From: an uncultured Eubacteriales bacterium
GTDB lineage: Bacteria; Bacillota; Clostridia; Oscillospirales; Oscillospiraceae
Length of the DNA: 64,000 bases
Assembly: GCA_900549475.1 (NCBI GenBank)
Contig: UROF01000004.1
Location: 55,884 to 119,883, forward strand
Direction of reading: 5' to 3'
The notes under the pieces are model-generated. The model did no database searches, was not told where the DNA came from, and worked only from the letters and a program-made list of their open reading frames with translations. Of this stretch, positions 22,200 to 28,166 are shown piece by piece. The position numbers and the translations under genes were made by a program. Each line of letters begins with the position of its first letter. Positions within the stretch are counted from its first letter, which is position 1.

Positions 22200-23558
22200 A
22201 TGCGTATATCTCGTCAAGCCGGCGACATTACCCAGGGCGTGATTTGGAAGCAGCTGCTGGCCTTCTTCTTCCCCCTGTGGTTCGGCACGTTTTTTCAACA
22301 ACTCTATAATACAGTAGATACCATCGTGGTGGGCCGCTACGTGGGTACCACTGCCTTAGCCGCCGTGGGTTCTACCGGCGTTGTCGTCAACCTGACCGTG
22401 GGTATTTTTACAGGCCTTTCCAGCGGCGCCGTGGTGGCGATCGCCCAACGGTACGGCGCACGGATGGATGAGGACGTCCGTAAAAGCGTCCACACCGCCA
22501 TGCTTCTCTCCGTGATCATCGGCGCATTCTTCACGGTGGTGGGCTATTTCCTCACCCCTTGGGCTCTGCAGGCCATGGACACCACAGAGGACGCCCTTCC
22601 CGGCGCTATTTTGTATCTGCAGATCTATTTCCTGGGCATGATCCCCAACGTGATTTACAACATGGGCACCGGCGTGCTCCGCGCTGTGGGAGATGCCAAG
22701 CGTCCGCTGTATTTCCTGATCGCTGCCTCTCTGTGCAATATCGTACTGGATCTTCTGCTGGTGGTGGTTTTCCACCTGGGCATCCTGGGCGTGGCTATCG
22801 CTACCGTCTGCTCCCAGATCCTCTCTGCTGTTCTGGTGGTGTTGTCCCTGATGTCTGTGAAGGGCGAGTGCTTCCGTCTGGTGCCTCGCCAGCTTCGTTT
22901 CCACTTTGAGCCCTTCAAAGCCATTATGATCATCGGAATTCCCACCGCCCTCCAATCCGTGATGTACAGCTTTTCCAATATCGTGATCCAGGCCGCTATC
23001 AACTCCTTTGGTACCAATGCTGTGGCCGCCTGGACCGCTTACGGCAAGATGGATATCCTCTTCTGGATGACCCTCACCGCCATGTCCCAGGCCCTCACCA
23101 CCTTTACCGGCCAAAACTACGGCGCCGGAAAATATGACCGGCTCAAGCAGGGCGTACGGGTATCCATGGCTATGACAGCCGGATTCACAGTGGTTATCTC
23201 CGCGGTCATGGTACTGCTGGCACGGCCCATCCTCTCCTTCTTTACCCCGGACCCGGACGTTCTGGAGATCGGTGTAGGGATGGTACAGTTTCTGGCGCCC
23301 TGCTACATAACCTACATCCTGGTGGAACTGCTGCCCGGCGCTATCCGAGGCGCAGGAAAGTCTATGGTACCTATGCTGATCTCTGTATTCGGCGTATGCG
23401 GCCTGCGTCTGCTGTGGCTCTTTACGGCGGTACCTGCTTACCACACCATTGAAATGGTGGAAGCCAGCTATCCCATCACCTGGGTGGTCACATCCGTGTC
23501 TATTTTTATTTACTACCGCTTTGGTCACTGGCTGAAACCTGCACAGGAACGCTCATAA
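22200..23558 (+). CDS. MATE family efflux transporter
   Basis: 452 aa, 12 TM helices, duplicated MatE halves. Confidence 0.85.
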   Translation: MRISRQAGDITQGVIWKQLLAFFFPLWFGTFFQQLYNTVDTIVVGRYVGTTALAAVGSTGVVVNLTVGIFTGLSSGAVVAIAQRYGARMDEDVRKSVHTAMLLSVIIGAFFTVVGYFLTPWALQAMDTTEDALPGAILYLQIYFLGMIPNVIYNMGTGVLRAVGDAKRPLYFLIAASLCNIVLDLLLVVVFHLGILGVAIATVCSQILSAVLVVLSLMSVKGECFRLVPRQLRFHFEPFKAIMIIGIPTALQSVMYSFSNIVIQAAINSFGTNAVAAWTAYGKMDILFWMTLTAMSQALTTFTGQNYGAGKYDRLKQGVRVSMAMTAGFTVVISAVMVLLARPILSFFTPDPDVLEIGVGMVQFLAPCYITYILVELLPGAIRGAGKSMVPMLISVFGVCGLRLLWLFTAVPAYHTIEMVEASYPITWVVTSVSIFIYYRFGHWLKPAQERS

Positions 23559-23568
23559 TCACTACAAA

Positions 23569-23598
23569 AGAAAGCACCCCCGTCGGGGTGCTTTCTCT
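23569..23598 (+). terminator. terminator after the MATE gene
   Basis: AAAGCACCCCCGTCGGGGTGCTTTCTCTT hairpin. Confidence 0.55.
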
Positions 23599-23657
23599 TA
23601 TCGATACGGCATCACATGCCAAACGCCTTTCTGCTATACGATTGGTGCCTGAATGTG

Positions 23658-23686
23658 TTGACAATCCTCGAAAAAGCCGCTATACT
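23658..23686 (+). promoter_or_regulatory. sigma-A type promoter driving the cobalamin riboswitch (-35 TTGACA / 17 bp / -10 TATACT)
   Basis: TTGACAATCCTCGAAAAAGCCGCTATACT, about 90 nt upstream of the riboswitch core. Confidence 0.5.
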
Positions 23687-23769
23687 TGCGCTGTACAGGA
23701 TGCTCCGGCTGCAACTGCGTTCCAGTCGCCAGCATCCGATAGCTCTGTTTTCCTATACAAATAACACCT

Positions 23770-24063
23770 CAGTGCTTACTCCTCCCGGGGAGCAAGGTAA
23801 AAGGGAATTCGGGTGAAACTCCCGGGCGATCCGGTCACTGTAACTGGGGAGCAAACCGCAACGCCATTGCGTAAGTGAGAAGGCGCGGCAAGCTATGATC
23901 CACAAGTCAGGAAACCTGCTGAGGCGTTCAGCTGCGATAGCTGCTTCCGAAGAAAGCTGCCTGTTGCTATGCGCAAGGAGCCGTCTGCCCCTAAAAGGGT
24001 GGCTGCTCCCTGTTCCCGTGCGTATGCAGCACCCCGCTTTCAAAAAAGCGGGGTGTTTTTTTA
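23770..24063 (+). promoter_or_regulatory. cobalamin (AdoCbl/B12) riboswitch with intrinsic terminator expression platform
   Basis: Conserved core elements on the + strand: AAGGGAA...GGTGAAACTCC at about 23801-23822, CACTGTAACTGGGGAGC, and B12-box AGTCAGGAAACCTGC at about 23905-23919. Terminator GCACCCCGC...GCGGGGTG plus T7 at about 24029-24063. Confidence 0.7.
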
Positions 24064-25185
24064 CAGAGGTTCCTCAGTGGGATACAGGCGCCTCTGCTCC
24101 CGCAGATGCCCCTTCAACACCTCTGCCAGGAATGTCTCCAGTGCCTCCACGGGGTCATCCATCTGTGCCGCACCAATGGGATACTGATAATGCTCGGCGG
24201 CAAGTGTCAGGAGGCGGGCATACCAATCTCCCGTCTCTCCGCGGGTGAGCATACCGCTGCGCTCCTGATCCAGGAGATGCACATACAGCGCCGCGGCAGA
24301 CACCAGGAAACCGTCCTGATCAATGTGCTCTATCGCCCGCCGGATAGCAGATTCCCCATTGGGAAATTCAGAAAGGCATTGCTCCAACAGGCTCCGCTCT
24401 GTAATGCCAAAGCGCTTGAGCCGCCGCAGCGTCCGGTGCTGGCCCTGCGGGCAAAGCCCCGTCTGACGGAACAGTGCTTCCGCCGCTGCCGCCTTCACCG
24501 CTGAGGCGATCAGCTCCCCCAGTTTGAAATGCTTGCCTGCATTATACAGGCACTCTCCGTCACTCCCATCGCAGATCAGGATCGCCCCATCAGTACCTGT
24601 TCCGGTGGCCAGCTCCGCGGAGACACTGCTGCCCTGCATCAGATCCCGCAGCAGCGCTGTTTTGGCCTCTGTTGCGGTGAGAAGCGCCTCTGTGAGCGCT
24701 CCCGGCGACAGCCGGGCACCGATCACCAGAAGAATATTGATCGTACCGGCAGGCACCAGGCAGGGCTCGCCCAGCCGCTCTGTCAGGTGGGCCGGGTCTC
24801 CCGCGCACAGGGCATTGACGTCCGCCCCGCCGGAAACAATGGCTGTTACCCACAGCTCTTCCCATTCCCGTGTCACCACAGCCAGATTATCCAAATTCGC
24901 TGCGGTATCCAACCCCGCTGTGTGGCAGGGGTCCAGTCCCAGCCGCTTTGCCACAGCCACCTGATGCTCTCTCAGGTCATGCCCCTCCATAGGCTGACAC
25001 ACACCGGCTCTCCCACAGTCGCTGTAGTTGAATACCGCCGTCAGATCCCGGCGCAAGCCGCCTCCATTGGCACTGGTGGCCAGCACATTTCTCGGGGCGG
25101 CGAAACGGATCACGGCACTCTTCTCTGAACAGACAAGAGTATCCCCGTTCCGCAGTATGATCCTTCGTTCCATAGCGCCCTCCAC
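24061..25185 (-). CDS. cbiZ: putative adenosylcobinamide amidohydrolase (CbiZ-like) with a C-terminal extension
   Basis: 374-aa protein with unbiased composition. Lies between a B12 riboswitch and a corrinoid-type ABC transporter. Family assignment rests on memory and genomic context, not a computed alignment. Confidence 0.4.
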   Translation of the reverse strand: MEGAMERRIILRNGDTLVCSEKSAVIRFAAPRNVLATSANGGGLRRDLTAVFNYSDCGRAGVCQPMEGHDLREHQVAVAKRLGLDPCHTAGLDTAANLDNLAVVTREWEELWVTAIVSGGADVNALCAGDPAHLTERLGEPCLVPAGTINILLVIGARLSPGALTEALLTATEAKTALLRDLMQGSSVSAELATGTGTDGAILICDGSDGECLYNAGKHFKLGELIASAVKAAAAEALFRQTGLCPQGQHRTLRRLKRFGITERSLLEQCLSEFPNGESAIRRAIEHIDQDGFLVSAAALYVHLLDQERSGMLTRGETGDWYARLLTLAAEHYQYPIGAAQMDDPVEALETFLAEVLKGHLREQRRLYPTEEPL

Positions 25186-25293
25186 ATCGTTGTCCTAGCT
25201 GCCGCAGCTCCCTGCGGCAGGCATTTATTATACCACGCTCTCCCAGTCACTGGCAATCACCATCACTTCAGAATACCAGAAAGGAAAAAGAAC

Positions 25294-26304
25294 ATGAAAA
25301 AGACCATTCTTGCTCTGGGCCTGTCCCTGATCCTTCTGCTGTCCGCAGGCTGCGGCAGCCAAAACAGCAGCGCAGGCAACCAGTCCGGCGCCAACGATAC
25401 CCCCTCCAACAATGTCTCTTCCAATCAGGATACGCAGCAGGATACACGTCCCACGGAAGACCGCAGTGGTAATCCTATCACCCTCCCCGATGAGATCAAT
25501 GCCATCATCTCCATGGCCCCCTCCGCTACCCAGACCCTTCTGGATCTGGGGATGAAAGACAAGCTGGTAGCGGTAGACACCTATTCCGCCATGTATTTTG
25601 GTCTGGACTCCCTGCCCACCTTTGACATGATGGAGCCGGATACTGAGCAGATCGCCGTGCTGGAGCCCGACCTGATGTTCACCACCGGCATGAGCTCCTC
25701 CGGCGGTACGGACCCCTACAAGCCCCTGCGTGATGTTGGTGTATGCGTGGCCGATATTCCCTCCTCCTCCAGCATCGAGGCCGTAAAGGAGGACACCCGC
25801 TTTATCGCCGCCTGTGTAGGACAGGAGGAAAAGTGTGAGGAGCTGATCGCCGCCATGGAAGCAGAGCTGGAGGAGATCGCCGCCATCGGCAGCACCATTA
25901 CCGAGCCCAAGACTGTGCTCTATGAAATCTCCTGCGCTCCCGATATATACACTGCTGGCCAGGGCACCTTTATTCAGGAGATGCTGGATATCGTCGGTGC
26001 TGAAAATATCTTTGCCGACCAGGAGAACTATATCTCCGTCACAGAGGAAGCCGCCGTCAGCGCCAACCCCGATGTGATCCTTACCTCTGTCAACTACATT
26101 GACGACCCTGTGGGTGAGATCATGGGCCGCAGCGGCTGGCAAAATGTCACCGCCATTGTCAACGGCGACGTCTACCAGGTGGATGCCAACGCCGTTTCCC
26201 TGCCCAACCTCCATGTGATCGATGGCATCAAGCAGATCGCCGTTCTGGTCTACCCGGAGGCCTATGCAGATATTGAGAACCCCTTTGCTGACAACGCCGC
26301 ATGA
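25294..26304 (+). CDS. btuF: corrinoid/iron-siderophore-type ABC transporter periplasmic binding lipoprotein (BtuF/FecB class)
   Basis: Lipobox LSAGCGS. TroA-like class III SBP architecture. Located in the riboswitch locus. Confidence 0.75.
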   Translation: MKKTILALGLSLILLLSAGCGSQNSSAGNQSGANDTPSNNVSSNQDTQQDTRPTEDRSGNPITLPDEINAIISMAPSATQTLLDLGMKDKLVAVDTYSAMYFGLDSLPTFDMMEPDTEQIAVLEPDLMFTTGMSSSGGTDPYKPLRDVGVCVADIPSSSSIEAVKEDTRFIAACVGQEEKCEELIAAMEAELEEIAAIGSTITEPKTVLYEISCAPDIYTAGQGTFIQEMLDIVGAENIFADQENYISVTEEAAVSANPDVILTSVNYIDDPVGEIMGRSGWQNVTAIVNGDVYQVDANAVSLPNLHVIDGIKQIAVLVYPEAYADIENPFADNAA

Positions 26305-27323
26305 AAACAGGTCTGAAGATCCTGCTGACCATTCTGGCGGCCATTGCCGTTCTGGTACTCAGTATCGGCGTCGGCTCCGTCTATGTGCCCCCGGATCAGG
26401 TGGTCAGCATTCTGCTCAGCAAGCTGCCCGGCGGTACACTGCCCGACAGTATTGACCCCAATCTGGTCTCCATCGTCTGGGGGATGCGGTTTCCCAGAGC
26501 GATCCTGGCCTTCCTGGCCGGAGGCGCCCTGGCGGTCAGCGGTACCGTGATGCAGTCCATTCTGAAAAATCCCCTGGCCTCCTCCTACACCCTGGGTGTA
26601 TCCTCCGGCGCCAGCCTGGGCGCGGCTATGGTGATGGTCAGCGGCCTCACCATTCCCTTCCTGGGGATCTTTACCCTCCCGGTGGCCGGATTTATCGGAG
26701 GCCTTGCCACCGTATTTCTGGCCATGGCCTTCGCAGCCCGCATTGACCGCAAAATGGAAAATCAGACCGTGATCCTGGTGGGCATGGTGTTCTCCCTCTT
26801 CGTCAACGCCGTGCTCACCCTGGTGACAGCCCTCTCCCGGGAACACCTGCAGCAGATGGTATTCTGGCAGATGGGCGGTTTTTCCGGTCGGGATTGGTCC
26901 CATGTGGCGGCCCTGTTTCCTGTAACAGCCATCGGTATTTTTGTATTGATGCTCTACACCCACGAAATGGATATCATGAGCTTCGGCGAGGACCAAGCCC
27001 AGGCCATCGGCGTGGATATCAAAAAGACCAAGATCATCCTCATCGGCATCTCCGCCCTGCTCACCGGCACCACCGTCTCCTTTGTAGGAGTGATCGGCTT
27101 TGTGGATCTGATCGCTCCCCATGTGGTGCGGCGGATCTTCGGCGCCTCCCACCGGTATGTACTGCCCCTGTCGGCGGTATTCGGCGGGACCTTCATGGCT
27201 CTGGCGGAGCTGGTAAGCCGGACGGTACTGGCCCCCACTATTATCCCCGTAGGTGCCGTAACCGCCCTGGTGGGCGCCCCCTTCTTCGCCGTGGTATTCT
27301 TCCGCGGCCGAAAGACGGCGTAA
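26301..27323 (+). CDS. btuC: FecCD-family ABC permease (BtuC-like)
   Basis: 340 aa, about 9 TM helices, FecCD signature region. 4-bp overlap with the SBP gene. Confidence 0.8.
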   Translation: MKTGLKILLTILAAIAVLVLSIGVGSVYVPPDQVVSILLSKLPGGTLPDSIDPNLVSIVWGMRFPRAILAFLAGGALAVSGTVMQSILKNPLASSYTLGVSSGASLGAAMVMVSGLTIPFLGIFTLPVAGFIGGLATVFLAMAFAARIDRKMENQTVILVGMVFSLFVNAVLTLVTALSREHLQQMVFWQMGGFSGRDWSHVAALFPVTAIGIFVLMLYTHEMDIMSFGEDQAQAIGVDIKKTKIILIGISALLTGTTVSFVGVIGFVDLIAPHVVRRIFGASHRYVLPLSAVFGGTFMALAELVSRTVLAPTIIPVGAVTALVGAPFFAVVFFRGRKTA

Positions 27324-27338
27324 GAAAGGAGGAACACT

Positions 27339-28109
27339 ATGCTGCATCTTGATCATCTGTGTGCCGGCTATGGAGGCACGGAGGTCCTCCATCAGCTGAG
27401 CTTTGACCTTCCCGTAGGGGAAAACCTGTGTATCCTGGGGCCCAACGGCTGTGGAAAAAGTACCCTCCTCAAAGCCATTGCCGCCCTCATTGACAGTACC
27501 GGAGAGCTGACCCTCCGAGGAGAACCCATCCGTGCCATGAAGCGGCCTGAGGTGGCCTCCCATATCGCCGTCATGAGCCAGATGAGCACGGTCTATTTTT
27601 CCTTTACCGTCTATGAGACGGTGATGATGGGCCGCTATCAGAAAATGAAGCGGGGAATCTTTACCTCCCCCTCCTCCGAGGATCGGAAGTACGTGGACCG
27701 CTATCTGGCTGTAACTGGACTGGACAGCCTGCGGGACCGGCAGATCTCCCAGCTCTCCGGCGGACAGCTTCAGCGGGTATTCCTGGCACGGACGCTGGTC
27801 CAGGAACCGGACATCATCCTGCTGGACGAGCCTACCAACCATTTGGATCTCAAGCACCAGGCGGAGCTGGTGACCTACCTCAAGCAGTGGTCCATTGAAA
27901 ACCAGCGGACTGTCATCGGTGTGCTTCATGACATCAATCTCTCCCTGATTCTGTCAGAAAAGCTGCTGTTTCTCAAGGATGGCAATATTGCGGGCTTTGG
28001 CTCTGCCTCGCAGCTTCTCAGCCGGGAATTTCTCAAAGATGTATACGACATGGATGTTGCCCAGTTCATGCTGGATTCCCTGAAAAAGTGGGAAAACATC
28101 AAAGAATAA
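27339..28109 (+). CDS. btuD: ABC transporter ATP-binding protein (BtuD/FecE-like)
   Basis: Walker A GPNGCGKST, signature LSGGQLQRVFLARTL, Walker B ILLDEPTNHLD. Confidence 0.85.
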   Translation: MLHLDHLCAGYGGTEVLHQLSFDLPVGENLCILGPNGCGKSTLLKAIAALIDSTGELTLRGEPIRAMKRPEVASHIAVMSQMSTVYFSFTVYETVMMGRYQKMKRGIFTSPSSEDRKYVDRYLAVTGLDSLRDRQISQLSGGQLQRVFLARTLVQEPDIILLDEPTNHLDLKHQAELVTYLKQWSIENQRTVIGVLHDINLSLILSEKLLFLKDGNIAGFGSASQLLSREFLKDVYDMDVAQFMLDSLKKWENIKE

Positions 28110-28115
28110 CAACGC

Positions 28116-28166
28116 AAAAAAGCCCGCGGGGTACGGAATGATTTCCGTACCCCGCGGGCTTTTTAC
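28116..28166. terminator. strong bidirectional rho-independent terminator
   Basis: AAAAAAGCCCGCGGGGTACGGAA-TGATT-TCCGTACCCCGCGGGCTTTTT. Confidence 0.75.

What the first reader, a model, noticed from the sequence alone, without database searches (positions are those of the whole stretch)
23640..25293. Cobalamin riboswitch aimed across an oppositely oriented gene toward btuFCD
A textbook B12 riboswitch (GGTGAAACTCC and AGTCAGGAAACCTGC B12-box) has its own -35/-10 promoter and an intrinsic terminator on the + strand at about 23658-24063. The next + strand genes are the btuFCD-like transporter starting at 25294. In between lies a 1.1-kb minus-strand gene (CbiZ-like) whose stop codon abuts the riboswitch terminator. 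The 108-bp region directly upstream of btuF is too short for a riboswitch of its own. So B12 control of btuFCD would need read-through of a leader longer than 1.2 kb that is antisense to cbiZ. Alternatively the riboswitch controls an antisense RNA against cbiZ.
Basis: partly seen in the sequence, partly recalled or inferred. Interest (0 to 1): 0.6.

Follow-up and report, generated by a model that had tools for sequence, protein, structure and literature searches.

The report
B12 riboswitch reading backwards through cbiZ
A genuine vitamin-B12 riboswitch sits tail-to-tail with the corrinoid-salvage gene cbiZ, and comparison with related gut bacteria suggests its read-through RNA is both the messenger for the B12-type transporter beyond cbiZ and an antisense RNA to cbiZ, a combination I did not find described.

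Summary
There is a full-length cobalamin riboswitch (RF00174, 94 bits) at 23753-23937 on the + strand. It has a near-consensus promoter at 23658-23686. Its strong terminator has a U-tract that overlaps the stop codon of a minus-strand cbiZ (24061-25173). btuFCD-like genes follow on the + strand from 25294.

The layout is not a one-off. Riboswitch, then reversed cbiZ, then btuFCD recurs in at least five lineages whose cbiZ synonymous sites are near saturation. Aptamers within the L011/L014/L022/L101 group stay 84-90% identical.

No + strand promoter is detectable in front of btuF in riboswitch-bearing loci. The only conserved intergenic element is cbiZ's own extended -10. One relative without the riboswitch unit has a consensus promoter directly upstream of btuF. 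Another lost the aptamer but kept the promoter behind cbiZ. cbiZ genes not next to btuFCD never carry the riboswitch.

Best reading (about 0.5): at low B12 the riboswitch lets a transcript run about 1.2 kb antisense through cbiZ and become the btuFCD mRNA, probably damping cbiZ. This would be a riboswitch-gated excludon. No expression data exist. Caveats are an apparently constitutive second terminator in some relatives and a long untranslated leader. It is a new variant of known kinds.

The parts
23658..23686 (+). Promoter of the riboswitch unit (TTGACA-17-TATACT)
   Evidence: 11 of 12 matches. Near-consensus promoters sit at the equivalent place in L011, L014, L022, L023/L101 and L096.
23753..23937 (+). 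Cobalamin riboswitch aptamer (RF00174)
   Evidence: 94.2 bits, full-length model, B12 box present.
23934..24027 (+). Expression platform. Hairpin A (23934-23967) is a predicted anti-antiterminator and hairpin B spans 23968-24026. An alternative antiterminator helix pairs about 23952-23975 with about 24018-24041.
   Evidence: ViennaRNA. The antiterminator is the minimum-energy fold until the 3' arm of the terminator is present. The mechanism is inferred.
24028..24062 (+). Intrinsic terminator (13-bp stem plus U7). Its U-tract overlaps the cbiZ stop codon.
24063..25293 (+). Inferred read-through leader, antisense to all of cbiZ and its promoter. It is non-coding.
   Evidence: No + strand promoter lies inside it. 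No antisense ORF is conserved across lineages. The transcript itself is not shown.
24061..25173 (-). cbiZ (adenosylcobinamide amidohydrolase family, 370-aa long form)
   Evidence: PF01955, 1.9e-47. (474 homologues, many about 370 aa).
25227..25256 (-). cbiZ promoter (TTGCCA-18-TGgTATAAT). Its -35 lies next to the btuF ribosome-binding region.
   Evidence: The extended -10 (TGnTATAAT) is the conserved element of the intergenic region in nearly all module loci examined; the scan did not call a cbiZ promoter in L096, L015 has TACAAT, and L002 carries a variant -10.
25199..25220 (.). 9-bp GC-rich hairpin. On the minus strand it is the 5' end of the cbiZ mRNA. On the + strand it is a weak terminator-like site in front of btuF.
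   Evidence: It is not conserved in the other lineages.
25294..26304 (+). btuF-like substrate-binding lipoprotein
   Evidence: Peripla_BP_2; below the NCBIfam BtuF cut-off.
26301..27323 (+). btuC-like permease
   Evidence: FecCD; best NCBIfam hits are BtuC models, below cut-off.
27339..28109 (+). btuD-like ATPase
28119..28162 (.). 20-bp palindromic bidirectional terminator that ends the + strand unit
   Evidence: Convergent minus-strand genes follow it.

Best explanation
This is a riboswitch-gated long transcript that is at once the btuFCD mRNA and an antisense RNA to cbiZ, that is, an excludon controlled by B12.

Transcription starts at the 23658-23686 promoter. With corrinoid bound, the aptamer lets hairpin A and the 24028-24062 terminator form, and only a short RNA of about 370 nt is made. 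cbiZ is then transcribed unhindered from its own extended -10 promoter. Without corrinoid, an antiterminator sequesters the 5' arm of the terminator. RNA polymerase then runs about 1.2 kb antisense through cbiZ and over the cbiZ promoter, and continues into btuF-btuC-btuD as far as the terminator at 28119-28162.

The transporter would therefore be on when B12 is scarce. cbiZ would at the same time be damped by head-on transcription, promoter occlusion or RNA duplex formation.

Shown: the parts, their conservation and the selection on the aptamer. Inferred: the antiterminator, the read-through, btuFCD's dependence on the distal promoter and any effect on cbiZ.
For: - All parts are present and intact.
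- The same order, promoter-riboswitch-terminator then reversed cbiZ then btuFCD, occurs in L011, L014, L022 and L023/L101, as well as in the window and its same-species contigs L006 and L017.
- CbiZ of the window is only 57-63% identical to those relatives.
- The riboswitch is under purifying selection. Aptamers are 84-90% identical among L011, L014, L022 and L101, while 4-fold sites of the adjacent cbiZ are 42-60% identical.
- In the window, no sigma-70-like + strand promoter of at least 9 of 12 matches lies between 23687 and 28900. At a threshold of 8 of 12, none lies within 250 nt upstream of btuF in the window, L012, L022, L023 or L101. The conserved intergenic element is the minus-strand TGnTATAAT.
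- Natural variants point the same way. L015 lacks the riboswitch unit and has TTGACA-17-TG-TATAGT 71 nt upstream of btuF, in an enlarged 180-nt spacer. L096-L098 lack the aptamer but keep a TTGACT-16-TATAAT promoter and a terminator behind an intact cbiZ.
- cbiZ genes of the same clade that are not next to btuFCD never carry the riboswitch (L001-L005, L007-L010, L016, L018-L021). In an NJ tree they are nested among module-type genes.
- Outgroups have the canonical forms. In L099/L100 the riboswitch sits directly upstream of btuF. In L042/L044 the riboswitch precedes btuFCD-cbiZ.
- A mutually exclusive antiterminator is predicted for the window's terminator.
Against: - There are no expression data of any kind.
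- The window's terminator is strong (-23 kcal/mol, U7).
- In the L011/L014/L022 type there are two successive terminator-like hairpins. I found an alternative pairing only for the first, so the second looks constitutive.
- The leader is 1.2 kb, untranslated and C-rich in the window (C/G 1.37). Such RNAs are typical targets of Rho and RNases.
- A hairpin with a T-rich tail lies on the + strand at 25199-25220, just before btuF.
- Transcription would be head-on with cbiZ.
- Consensus scans can miss real promoters, for example activator-dependent ones.
- Only one riboswitch-less lineage with its own btuF promoter was sampled.
- In the canonical arrangement, CbiZ is induced by corrinoid starvation (58-80-fold in Dehalobacter restrictus, PMC4285132). 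The opposite regulation implied here needs a rationale.
Confidence: 0.5

Rival explanations
1. Antisense-only, like AspocR. The riboswitch gates an antisense RNA, or transcriptional interference, that acts only on cbiZ. btuFCD is transcribed from an unrecognised promoter of its own in the 120-nt spacer or inside the 5' end of cbiZ.
For: - The riboswitch is convergent and abuts the cbiZ 3' end in at least five lineages.
- This geometry matches the two experimentally characterised antisense-acting riboswitches (PMC7154746, PMC9943018).
- A + strand hairpin with a T-rich tail at 25199-25220 could stop the antisense RNA before btuF.
- Promoter scans are insensitive.
Against: - The riboswitch is absent from every same-clade cbiZ that is not next to btuFCD.
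- L096 lost the aptamer but kept the promoter, yet its cbiZ is intact. Constitutive antisense repression would make cbiZ useless.
- L015 gained a consensus btuF promoter exactly where the riboswitch unit is missing.
- No + strand promoter is detectable near btuF in riboswitch-bearing loci.
- The btuFCD-like transporter would be left with no riboswitch or other detectable B12-responsive element of its own, whereas the relatives sampled here place a riboswitch on the transporter's strand (L042, L044, L099/L100).
Confidence: 0.2
2. Leader-only. The riboswitch controls btuFCD through the long leader, but antisense transcription has no meaningful effect on cbiZ. The reversed cbiZ is a tolerated passenger from an old insertion or inversion between the riboswitch and its operon.
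For: - It shares all the evidence that links the riboswitch to btuFCD.
- Canonical outgroups have the riboswitch directly upstream of btuF.
- Serrano-Gutierrez and Merino describe insertions between riboswitches and their targets (PMC9943018).
Against: - The transcript must cross the cbiZ promoter and the whole gene head-on. Transcriptional interference is generally expected in such geometries (PMC7154746).
- The arrangement has persisted through saturation of synonymous sites without being resolved.
Confidence: 0.17
3. Stand-alone riboswitch RNA. The unit mostly terminates and makes a small RNA that acts in trans, like the EutX/Rli55 B12-riboswitch sRNAs, or that pairs with the overlapping 3' end of the cbiZ mRNA. 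It does not feed btuFCD.
For: - Terminators are strong and, in the L014 type, doubled.
- L096 keeps a promoter followed almost at once by a terminator.
- The terminated RNA and the cbiZ 3' UTR overlap at the terminator.
Against: - No conserved sequence beyond the aptamer and platform suggests a trans-acting target site.
- The platform is only 63-65% identical between L101 and the L014 type.
- This reading does not explain the link to btuFCD adjacency or the L015 promoter.
Confidence: 0.08
4. Non-functional relic. The riboswitch was orphaned by a rearrangement and now does nothing.
For: The aptamer was lost in L096. The whole unit was lost in L015 and L002.
Against: - The window's aptamer is full-length and high-scoring.
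- Aptamers are 84-90% identical where neutral sites are near saturation.
- Promoters are near-consensus in all lineages.
Confidence: 0.03

Closest known systems
AspocR, the B12-riboswitch-regulated antisense RNA of Listeria monocytogenes (Mellin et al. 2013; reviewed in PMC7154746)
   Same: A cobalamin riboswitch with its own promoter lies downstream of, and convergent with, a B12-related gene. B12 binding terminates transcription, and without B12 a long antisense RNA covers the gene.
   Different: - AspocR is described as acting on pocR. It is not described as the mRNA of a downstream operon.
- Here the antisense transcript would continue into a co-directional transporter operon that has no detectable promoter of its own.
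- The target is an enzyme (CbiZ), not a transcription factor.
- Nothing here has been tested experimentally.
S-box riboswitch antisense control of the ubiG-mccBA operon in Clostridium acetobutylicum (Andre et al. 2008; PMC7154746, PMC9943018)
   Same: A convergent, riboswitch-gated promoter at the 3' end of the target. The proposed action is in cis, by transcriptional interference.
   Different: The ligand is different, and the target has its own T-box. The antisense transcript has no coding role for a neighbouring operon.
Excludons of Listeria (Sesto et al. 2013; PMC7154746)
   Same: One long transcript is antisense to one gene and serves as mRNA for the divergently oriented neighbour with a related function. 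The two are therefore expressed reciprocally.
   Different: Known excludons are driven by alternative promoters or sigma factors. I found no description of one gated by a riboswitch.
Canonical B12-riboswitch-controlled btuFCD(-cbiZ) operons (L042, L044 and L099/L100 here; Dehalobacter restrictus operons, PMC4285132)
   Same: The same riboswitch family, transporter type and cbiZ association. The transporter is repressed by B12.
   Different: There the riboswitch is directly upstream, and cbiZ, where present, is co-directional and co-induced by starvation. Here cbiZ is inverted inside the leader and has its own promoter.
Computationally predicted antisense-acting riboswitches (Serrano-Gutierrez and Merino 2023, PMC9943018)
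   Same: The selection criterion is the same: a riboswitch at the 3' end of a gene, on the opposite strand. Cobalamin is one of the families they found enriched.
   Different: - cbiZ (COG1865) is absent from the main text and from the supplementary tables held as text.
- Their cases where the true target is the next sense gene involve spurious ORFs under 300 nt. This case involves a conserved 370-aa gene.

Membership tests
Cobalamin riboswitch (Rfam RF00174) | Covariance-model score at or above the gathering threshold over the full model | tested here: met
   94.2 bits against 31.5, model positions 1-189 of 189.
Cobalamin riboswitch (Rfam RF00174) | Conserved B12 box and the GGUGnAAnnCC core | tested here: met
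   AGTCAGGAAACCTGC at 23906-23920 and GGGTGAAACTCCC at 23811-23823.
Cobalamin riboswitch (Rfam RF00174) | Binds a corrinoid and changes conformation | not testable with these tools
   Needs in-line probing, ITC or a reporter assay.
Transcription-terminating (OFF) riboswitch expression platform | Intrinsic terminator directly after the aptamer | tested here: met
   13-bp stem plus U7 at 24028-24062, -23 kcal/mol.
Transcription-terminating (OFF) riboswitch expression platform | Mutually exclusive antiterminator linked to the aptamer state | tested here: inconclusive
   Folding predicts a helix between about 23952-23975 and about 24018-24041 that competes with both hairpin A and the terminator. 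The link to ligand binding is inferred. No covariation test was possible for the window-type platform, because only same-species copies exist.
Antisense-acting riboswitch (AspocR / ubiG S-box type) | Riboswitch with its own promoter at the 3' end of a gene, transcribed convergently | tested here: met
   Conserved in L011, L014, L022 and L023/L101.
Antisense-acting riboswitch (AspocR / ubiG S-box type) | Ligand-dependent long antisense transcript that lowers expression of the overlapped gene | not testable with these tools
   Needs strand-specific RNA-seq or Northern blots with and without B12, and cbiZ reporters.
Excludon | Divergent neighbouring genes or operons of related function | tested here: met
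   cbiZ (-) and btuFCD-like (+) diverge from a 120-nt spacer. The arrangement is conserved in every module-type locus (L011, L012, L014, L015, L022, L023, L096, L101; also L103, where only the start of cbiZ is on the contig).
Excludon | One long transcript is antisense to one gene and mRNA for the other, which lacks a proximal promoter under that condition | tested here: inconclusive
   No + strand promoter is detected near btuF, and the L015 and L096 variants agree with this. The transcript itself has not been observed.
CbiZ (PF01955, adenosylcobinamide amidohydrolase) | Match to the family profile above its cut-off | tested here: met
   162 bits against 27, residues 27-233. Enzymatic activity is not testable here. 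The C-terminal 135 aa or so match no family.
BtuFCD vitamin B12 ABC importer | Peripla_BP_2, FecCD and ABC_tran gene trio (type II importer) | tested here: met
BtuFCD vitamin B12 ABC importer | Match to the NCBIfam BtuF, BtuC and BtuD equivalog models above their cut-offs | tested here: not met
   BtuF 40.5 bits against 234. BtuC 217.7 against 461 and 200.9 against 334. BtuD 132 against 281. It is therefore called btuFCD-like. Corrinoid specificity is inferred from the link with cbiZ and with RF00174 in relatives.

The most novel reading that the evidence does not exclude
One B12 riboswitch sets two opposite outputs from a single promoter. At low corrinoid, read-through makes the transporter mRNA and simultaneously silences the corrinoid-remodelling enzyme CbiZ by antisense transcription. 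At high corrinoid, termination shuts the transporter off and releases cbiZ. This would be a riboswitch-gated excludon, conserved across a clade of gut Oscillospiraceae-like bacteria. It would invert the usual starvation-induced regulation of cbiZ.
Probability: 0.3. Interest if true: 0.7.

Novelty: new variant of a known kind. Interest (0 to 1): 0.55.

Why it matters
Only two antisense-acting riboswitches have been characterised experimentally, and I found no excludon described as ligand-gated. If this reading is correct, three things follow.

- A conserved, functionally related gene can sit inverted inside a riboswitch leader. That lets one aptamer give reciprocal control of uptake and of corrinoid remodelling.
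- Riboswitch regulons should not be assigned only to the nearest co-directional gene, and convergent hits should not be discarded.
- It gives a testable idea of how gut anaerobes separate "acquire corrinoid" from "process corrinoid".

The natural variants offer ready-made controls: L096 (aptamer deleted) and L015 (riboswitch unit replaced by a proximal promoter).

Tried and rejected
- **B12-box regex.** A hand-written B12-box regex over all loci found almost nothing because the pattern was one base too long. I replaced it with Rfam scans.
- **Species-representative genome scan.** None had the riboswitch and none showed the window's arrangement.
- **Second regulatory RNA in front of btuF.** Rejected: nothing credible in 23500-25400 at E up to 1.
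- **Conserved protein-coding ORF on the + strand opposite cbiZ**, which would make the leader translated. Rejected: stop-codon patterns differ between lineages, with 1-10 stops in the best frame.
- **Orthology of the window's riboswitch with the L014 type.** The alignment is too diverged to decide between common descent and independent capture.
- **The 25199-25220 hairpin as a conserved + strand terminator.** It is not conserved in other lineages. It is better explained as the 5' stem-loop of the cbiZ mRNA next to the AT-rich -10.
- **Antiterminator for the second hairpin of the L014-type platform.** None found.
- **PDB and Pfam for the CbiZ C-terminal extension.** No hits.
- **Last contig look-up.** Spent on P0143 in the hope that it was Pseudoflavonifractor capillosus. 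It was a different 1.3-kb MAG contig, too short to test for the riboswitch.
Full report
**1.

Rfam finds a single family above threshold in the 64-kb window. It is a full-length cobalamin riboswitch aptamer at 23753-23937 (+), scoring 94.2 bits against a gathering score of 31.5. A permissive rescan of 23500-25400 adds nothing credible, so there is no second regulatory RNA in front of btuF.

Upstream lies TTGACA-17-TATACT at 23658-23686. Downstream is a 13-bp hairpin at 24028-24057 followed by seven T.

The minus-strand ORF 24061-25185 is a CbiZ (PF01955, 1.9e-47). Its likely ATG is at 25173, giving 370 aa. Its TAA stop overlaps the last bases of the terminator's T-run.

On the + strand follow three genes:
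- Peripla_BP_2 at 25294-26304;
- FecCD at 26301-27323;
- ABC_tran at 27339-28109.

A 20-bp palindromic terminator at 28119-28162 closes this unit, and convergent minus-strand genes lie beyond it.

The transporter proteins do not reach NCBIfam's BtuF, BtuC or BtuD equivalog cut-offs. "btuFCD-like" is therefore the correct label. Corrinoid specificity is inferred from context.

**2. The expression platform**

Folding 23930-24066 gives hairpin A (23934-23967), hairpin B (23968-24026) and the terminator. If the 3' arm of the terminator is left out, as during transcription, the minimum-energy structure changes. It becomes a long helix pairing about 23952-23975 with about 24018-24041. That helix consumes the 3' arm of hairpin A and the 5' arm of the terminator.

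This is the classic three-stem logic: anti-antiterminator, antiterminator, terminator. It suggests an OFF switch in which bound corrinoid leads to termination. This is a prediction from folding, not a demonstration.

**3. The layout is conserved and selected**

BtuF and CbiZ homologues from public assemblies brought in related loci.

The divergent cbiZ/btuFCD pair is found in L011, L012, L014, L015, L022, L023, L096-L098, L101 and L103. A cobalamin riboswitch on the btuF strand, pointing into the 3' end of cbiZ and 67-89 nt from its stop, is present in:
- L011 (4519-4709);
- L014 (3804-4046);
- L022 (5062-4802, minus strand in locus coordinates);
- L023 (2456-2173);
- L101 (2450-2733);
- the same-species contigs L006 and L017.

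Each has a near-consensus promoter in front of it.

The window's CbiZ is only 57-63% identical to these. The others are 66-83% identical to each other. Among L011, L014, L022 and L101 the aptamer is 84-90% identical in nucleotides, whereas 4-fold degenerate sites of the adjacent cbiZ are 42-60% identical. Synonymous sites between the window and the rest are at 34-40%. The riboswitch is therefore under purifying selection and is not a relic.

**4. What does it control?**

Four lines of comparative evidence tie the riboswitch unit to btuFCD.

(a) *Promoters.* In the window, no sigma-70-like + strand site of at least 9 of 12 matches lies anywhere between the riboswitch promoter and the end of btuD. 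With a laxer threshold of 8 of 12, nothing lies within 250 nt of btuF in the window, L012, L022, L023 or L101. Only weak intragenic matches appear in L011, L014 and L096. The one conserved block of the 77-120-nt spacer is ATTATAGCA. On the minus strand this reads TGCTATAAT, an extended -10 for cbiZ.

(b) *L015.* This locus has the divergent pair but no riboswitch unit. Another minus-strand gene follows cbiZ after 114 nt. Its spacer is enlarged to 180 nt and carries TTGACA-17-TG-TATAGT 71 nt upstream of btuF.

(c) *L096-L098.* These lack the aptamer. They keep TTGACT-16-TATAAT at 2682-2709 and a terminator hairpin abutting the stop of an intact 370-aa cbiZ. A promoter behind cbiZ has thus been kept even without the sensor.

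(d) *cbiZ without btuFCD.* cbiZ genes of the same clade that are not adjacent to btuFCD never have the riboswitch. These include the Gemmiger-type loci L001, L003, L004, L007, L016, L018 and L020, and also L005, L008-L010, L019 and L021. In a rough NJ tree they nest among module-type genes. The riboswitch therefore travels with btuFCD adjacency, not with cbiZ.

Outgroups show the canonical forms. In L099/L100 the riboswitch is 114 nt upstream of btuF with no cbiZ. In L042 and L044 the riboswitch precedes a co-directional btuF-btuC-btuD-cbiZ.

**5. Best explanation**

Together these points favour one reading. The transcript that escapes the riboswitch terminator is the btuFCD mRNA. It must therefore cross cbiZ and the cbiZ promoter in antisense.

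The expected consequences are head-on collision, promoter occlusion and duplex formation. These would make cbiZ and btuFCD reciprocal: transporter on and cbiZ damped at low corrinoid, and the reverse at high corrinoid.

This is the architecture of an excludon (PMC7154746) with a riboswitch as the gate. It also combines features of the two experimentally known antisense-acting riboswitches, AspocR and the ubiG S-box (PMC7154746, PMC9943018).

A possible rationale rests on my own knowledge of CbiZ biochemistry (Woodson and Escalante-Semerena 2004; Gray and Escalante-Semerena 2009). CbiZ acts on intracellular corrinoids, so it is needed only once corrinoid is inside the cell. This rationale is speculative. 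It runs opposite to the starvation induction of CbiZ seen in canonical operons (PMC4285132).

**6. Evidence against, and rivals**

There are no transcript data. The other obstacles are as follows.
- The window's terminator is strong.
- In the L011/L014/L022 type there are two consecutive terminator-like hairpins. The 5' arm of the first can alternatively pair with the 3' part of the aptamer. I found no competitor for the second, which looks constitutive.
- The leader is 1.2 kb and has no conserved ORF. In the window it is C-rich (C/G 1.37), which would favour Rho-dependent termination or decay.
- A + strand hairpin with a T-rich tail sits at 25199-25220. It is not conserved elsewhere, and it is also explained as the 5' stem-loop of the cbiZ mRNA next to the -10 box.
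- Consensus promoter scans can miss real promoters.

The rivals and my rough weights are:
- antisense-only (AspocR-like), 0.2;
- leader-only with no effect on cbiZ, 0.17;
- a stand-alone small RNA, 0.08;
- a relic, 0.03, contradicted.

**7. Comparison with the literature**

A computational survey lists 292 candidate antisense-acting riboswitches and finds cobalamin enriched among them (PMC9943018). cbiZ (COG1865) does not appear in its text or in the supplementary tables held. Its cases of "true target is the next sense gene" concern spurious ORFs shorter than 300 nt.

Searches for cbiZ with riboswitch and antisense, and for excludon with riboswitch, turned up no description of this arrangement. 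These searches cover only open-access full text.

**8. Verdict**

Control of btuFCD by read-through across an inverted cbiZ is the best-supported reading, at about 0.5. The reciprocal-regulation (excludon) corollary is plausible but untested.

It is a new variant of known kinds (riboswitch-regulated antisense RNA, excludon). It is not categorically new. It is of moderate interest and directly testable, and the natural variants L015 and L096 serve as controls.

Noticed in passing
window 24064-24470 (minus strand; CbiZ residues about 235-370): This CbiZ is a 370-aa long form. The C-terminal 135 residues or so are conserved across homologues, with invariant positions such as L300, D302 and Q303. 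They match no Pfam family and no PDB sequence.
   Followed up: partly
L096 2682-2770 (also L097, L098): A natural aptamer-deletion variant. A TTGACT-16-TATAAT promoter is followed within about 30 nt by a terminator hairpin that abuts the cbiZ stop. There is no RF00174 hit, and cbiZ and btuFCD are intact.
   Followed up: yes
L015 4585-4699 and 5821-6000: A relative with the divergent cbiZ/btuFCD pair but no riboswitch unit. The spacer is enlarged to 180 nt and carries a consensus extended -10 promoter, TTGACA-17-TG-TATAGT, for btuF.
   Followed up: yes
L014 9455-9715 and 9904-12308: A second cobalamin riboswitch precedes a very large (>2444 aa) SLH-anchored surface protein with Big_3, aBig_2 and DUF4430 domains. 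It may be a surface corrinoid-binding protein.
   Followed up: no
L011 8822-9054, 9508-9703 and 4519-4709: Three cobalamin riboswitches within 5.2 kb. Two lie downstream of btuD, next to a small zf-like (PF04071) gene and an SBP_bac_5 ABC system. The left flank carries conjugation genes (MobL, TraG-like), so the module may sit on a mobile element.
   Followed up: no
L008 6001-13119 (also L009, L010): Here a same-clade cbiZ is followed, co-directionally, by a NifH-like gene, two Oxidored_nitro genes and a Peripla_BP_2/FecCD/ABC_tran transporter. No riboswitch is detected.
   Followed up: no
L002 1-75 and 1180-1330 (Pseudoflavonifractor capillosus ATCC 29799): The riboswitch unit is replaced by a convergent HTH-like gene with its own terminator. 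The 66 nt upstream of cbiZ are homologous to the module's spacer, but the contig ends there, so btuF adjacency is unknown.
   Followed up: partly
window 28119-28162: A perfect 20-bp palindrome (AAAGCCCGCGGGGTACGGAA...) flanked by A and T runs. It is a bidirectional terminator between btuD and convergent minus-strand genes (an unknown 191-aa protein, a GDSL-like protein and an MBOAT protein).
   Followed up: partly
L101 1361-1476 (minus strand): A NiCo riboswitch (RF02683, 43 bits) lies near a FUR-family gene, about 1 kb from the cobalamin riboswitch of the module.
   Followed up: no
L001 11433-11490 (minus strand): A pemK RNA motif (RF02913, 71 bits) in Gemmiger sp. An50. It is unrelated to the finding.
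   Followed up: no
window 23566-23600: A hairpin (AAAGCACCCC-GTC-GGGGTGCTTT) lies just after the MATE gene (22200-23558) and upstream of the riboswitch promoter. It is probably the MATE terminator, which would insulate the riboswitch unit. The terminator scan did not flag it because the tail is not T-rich.
   Followed up: no
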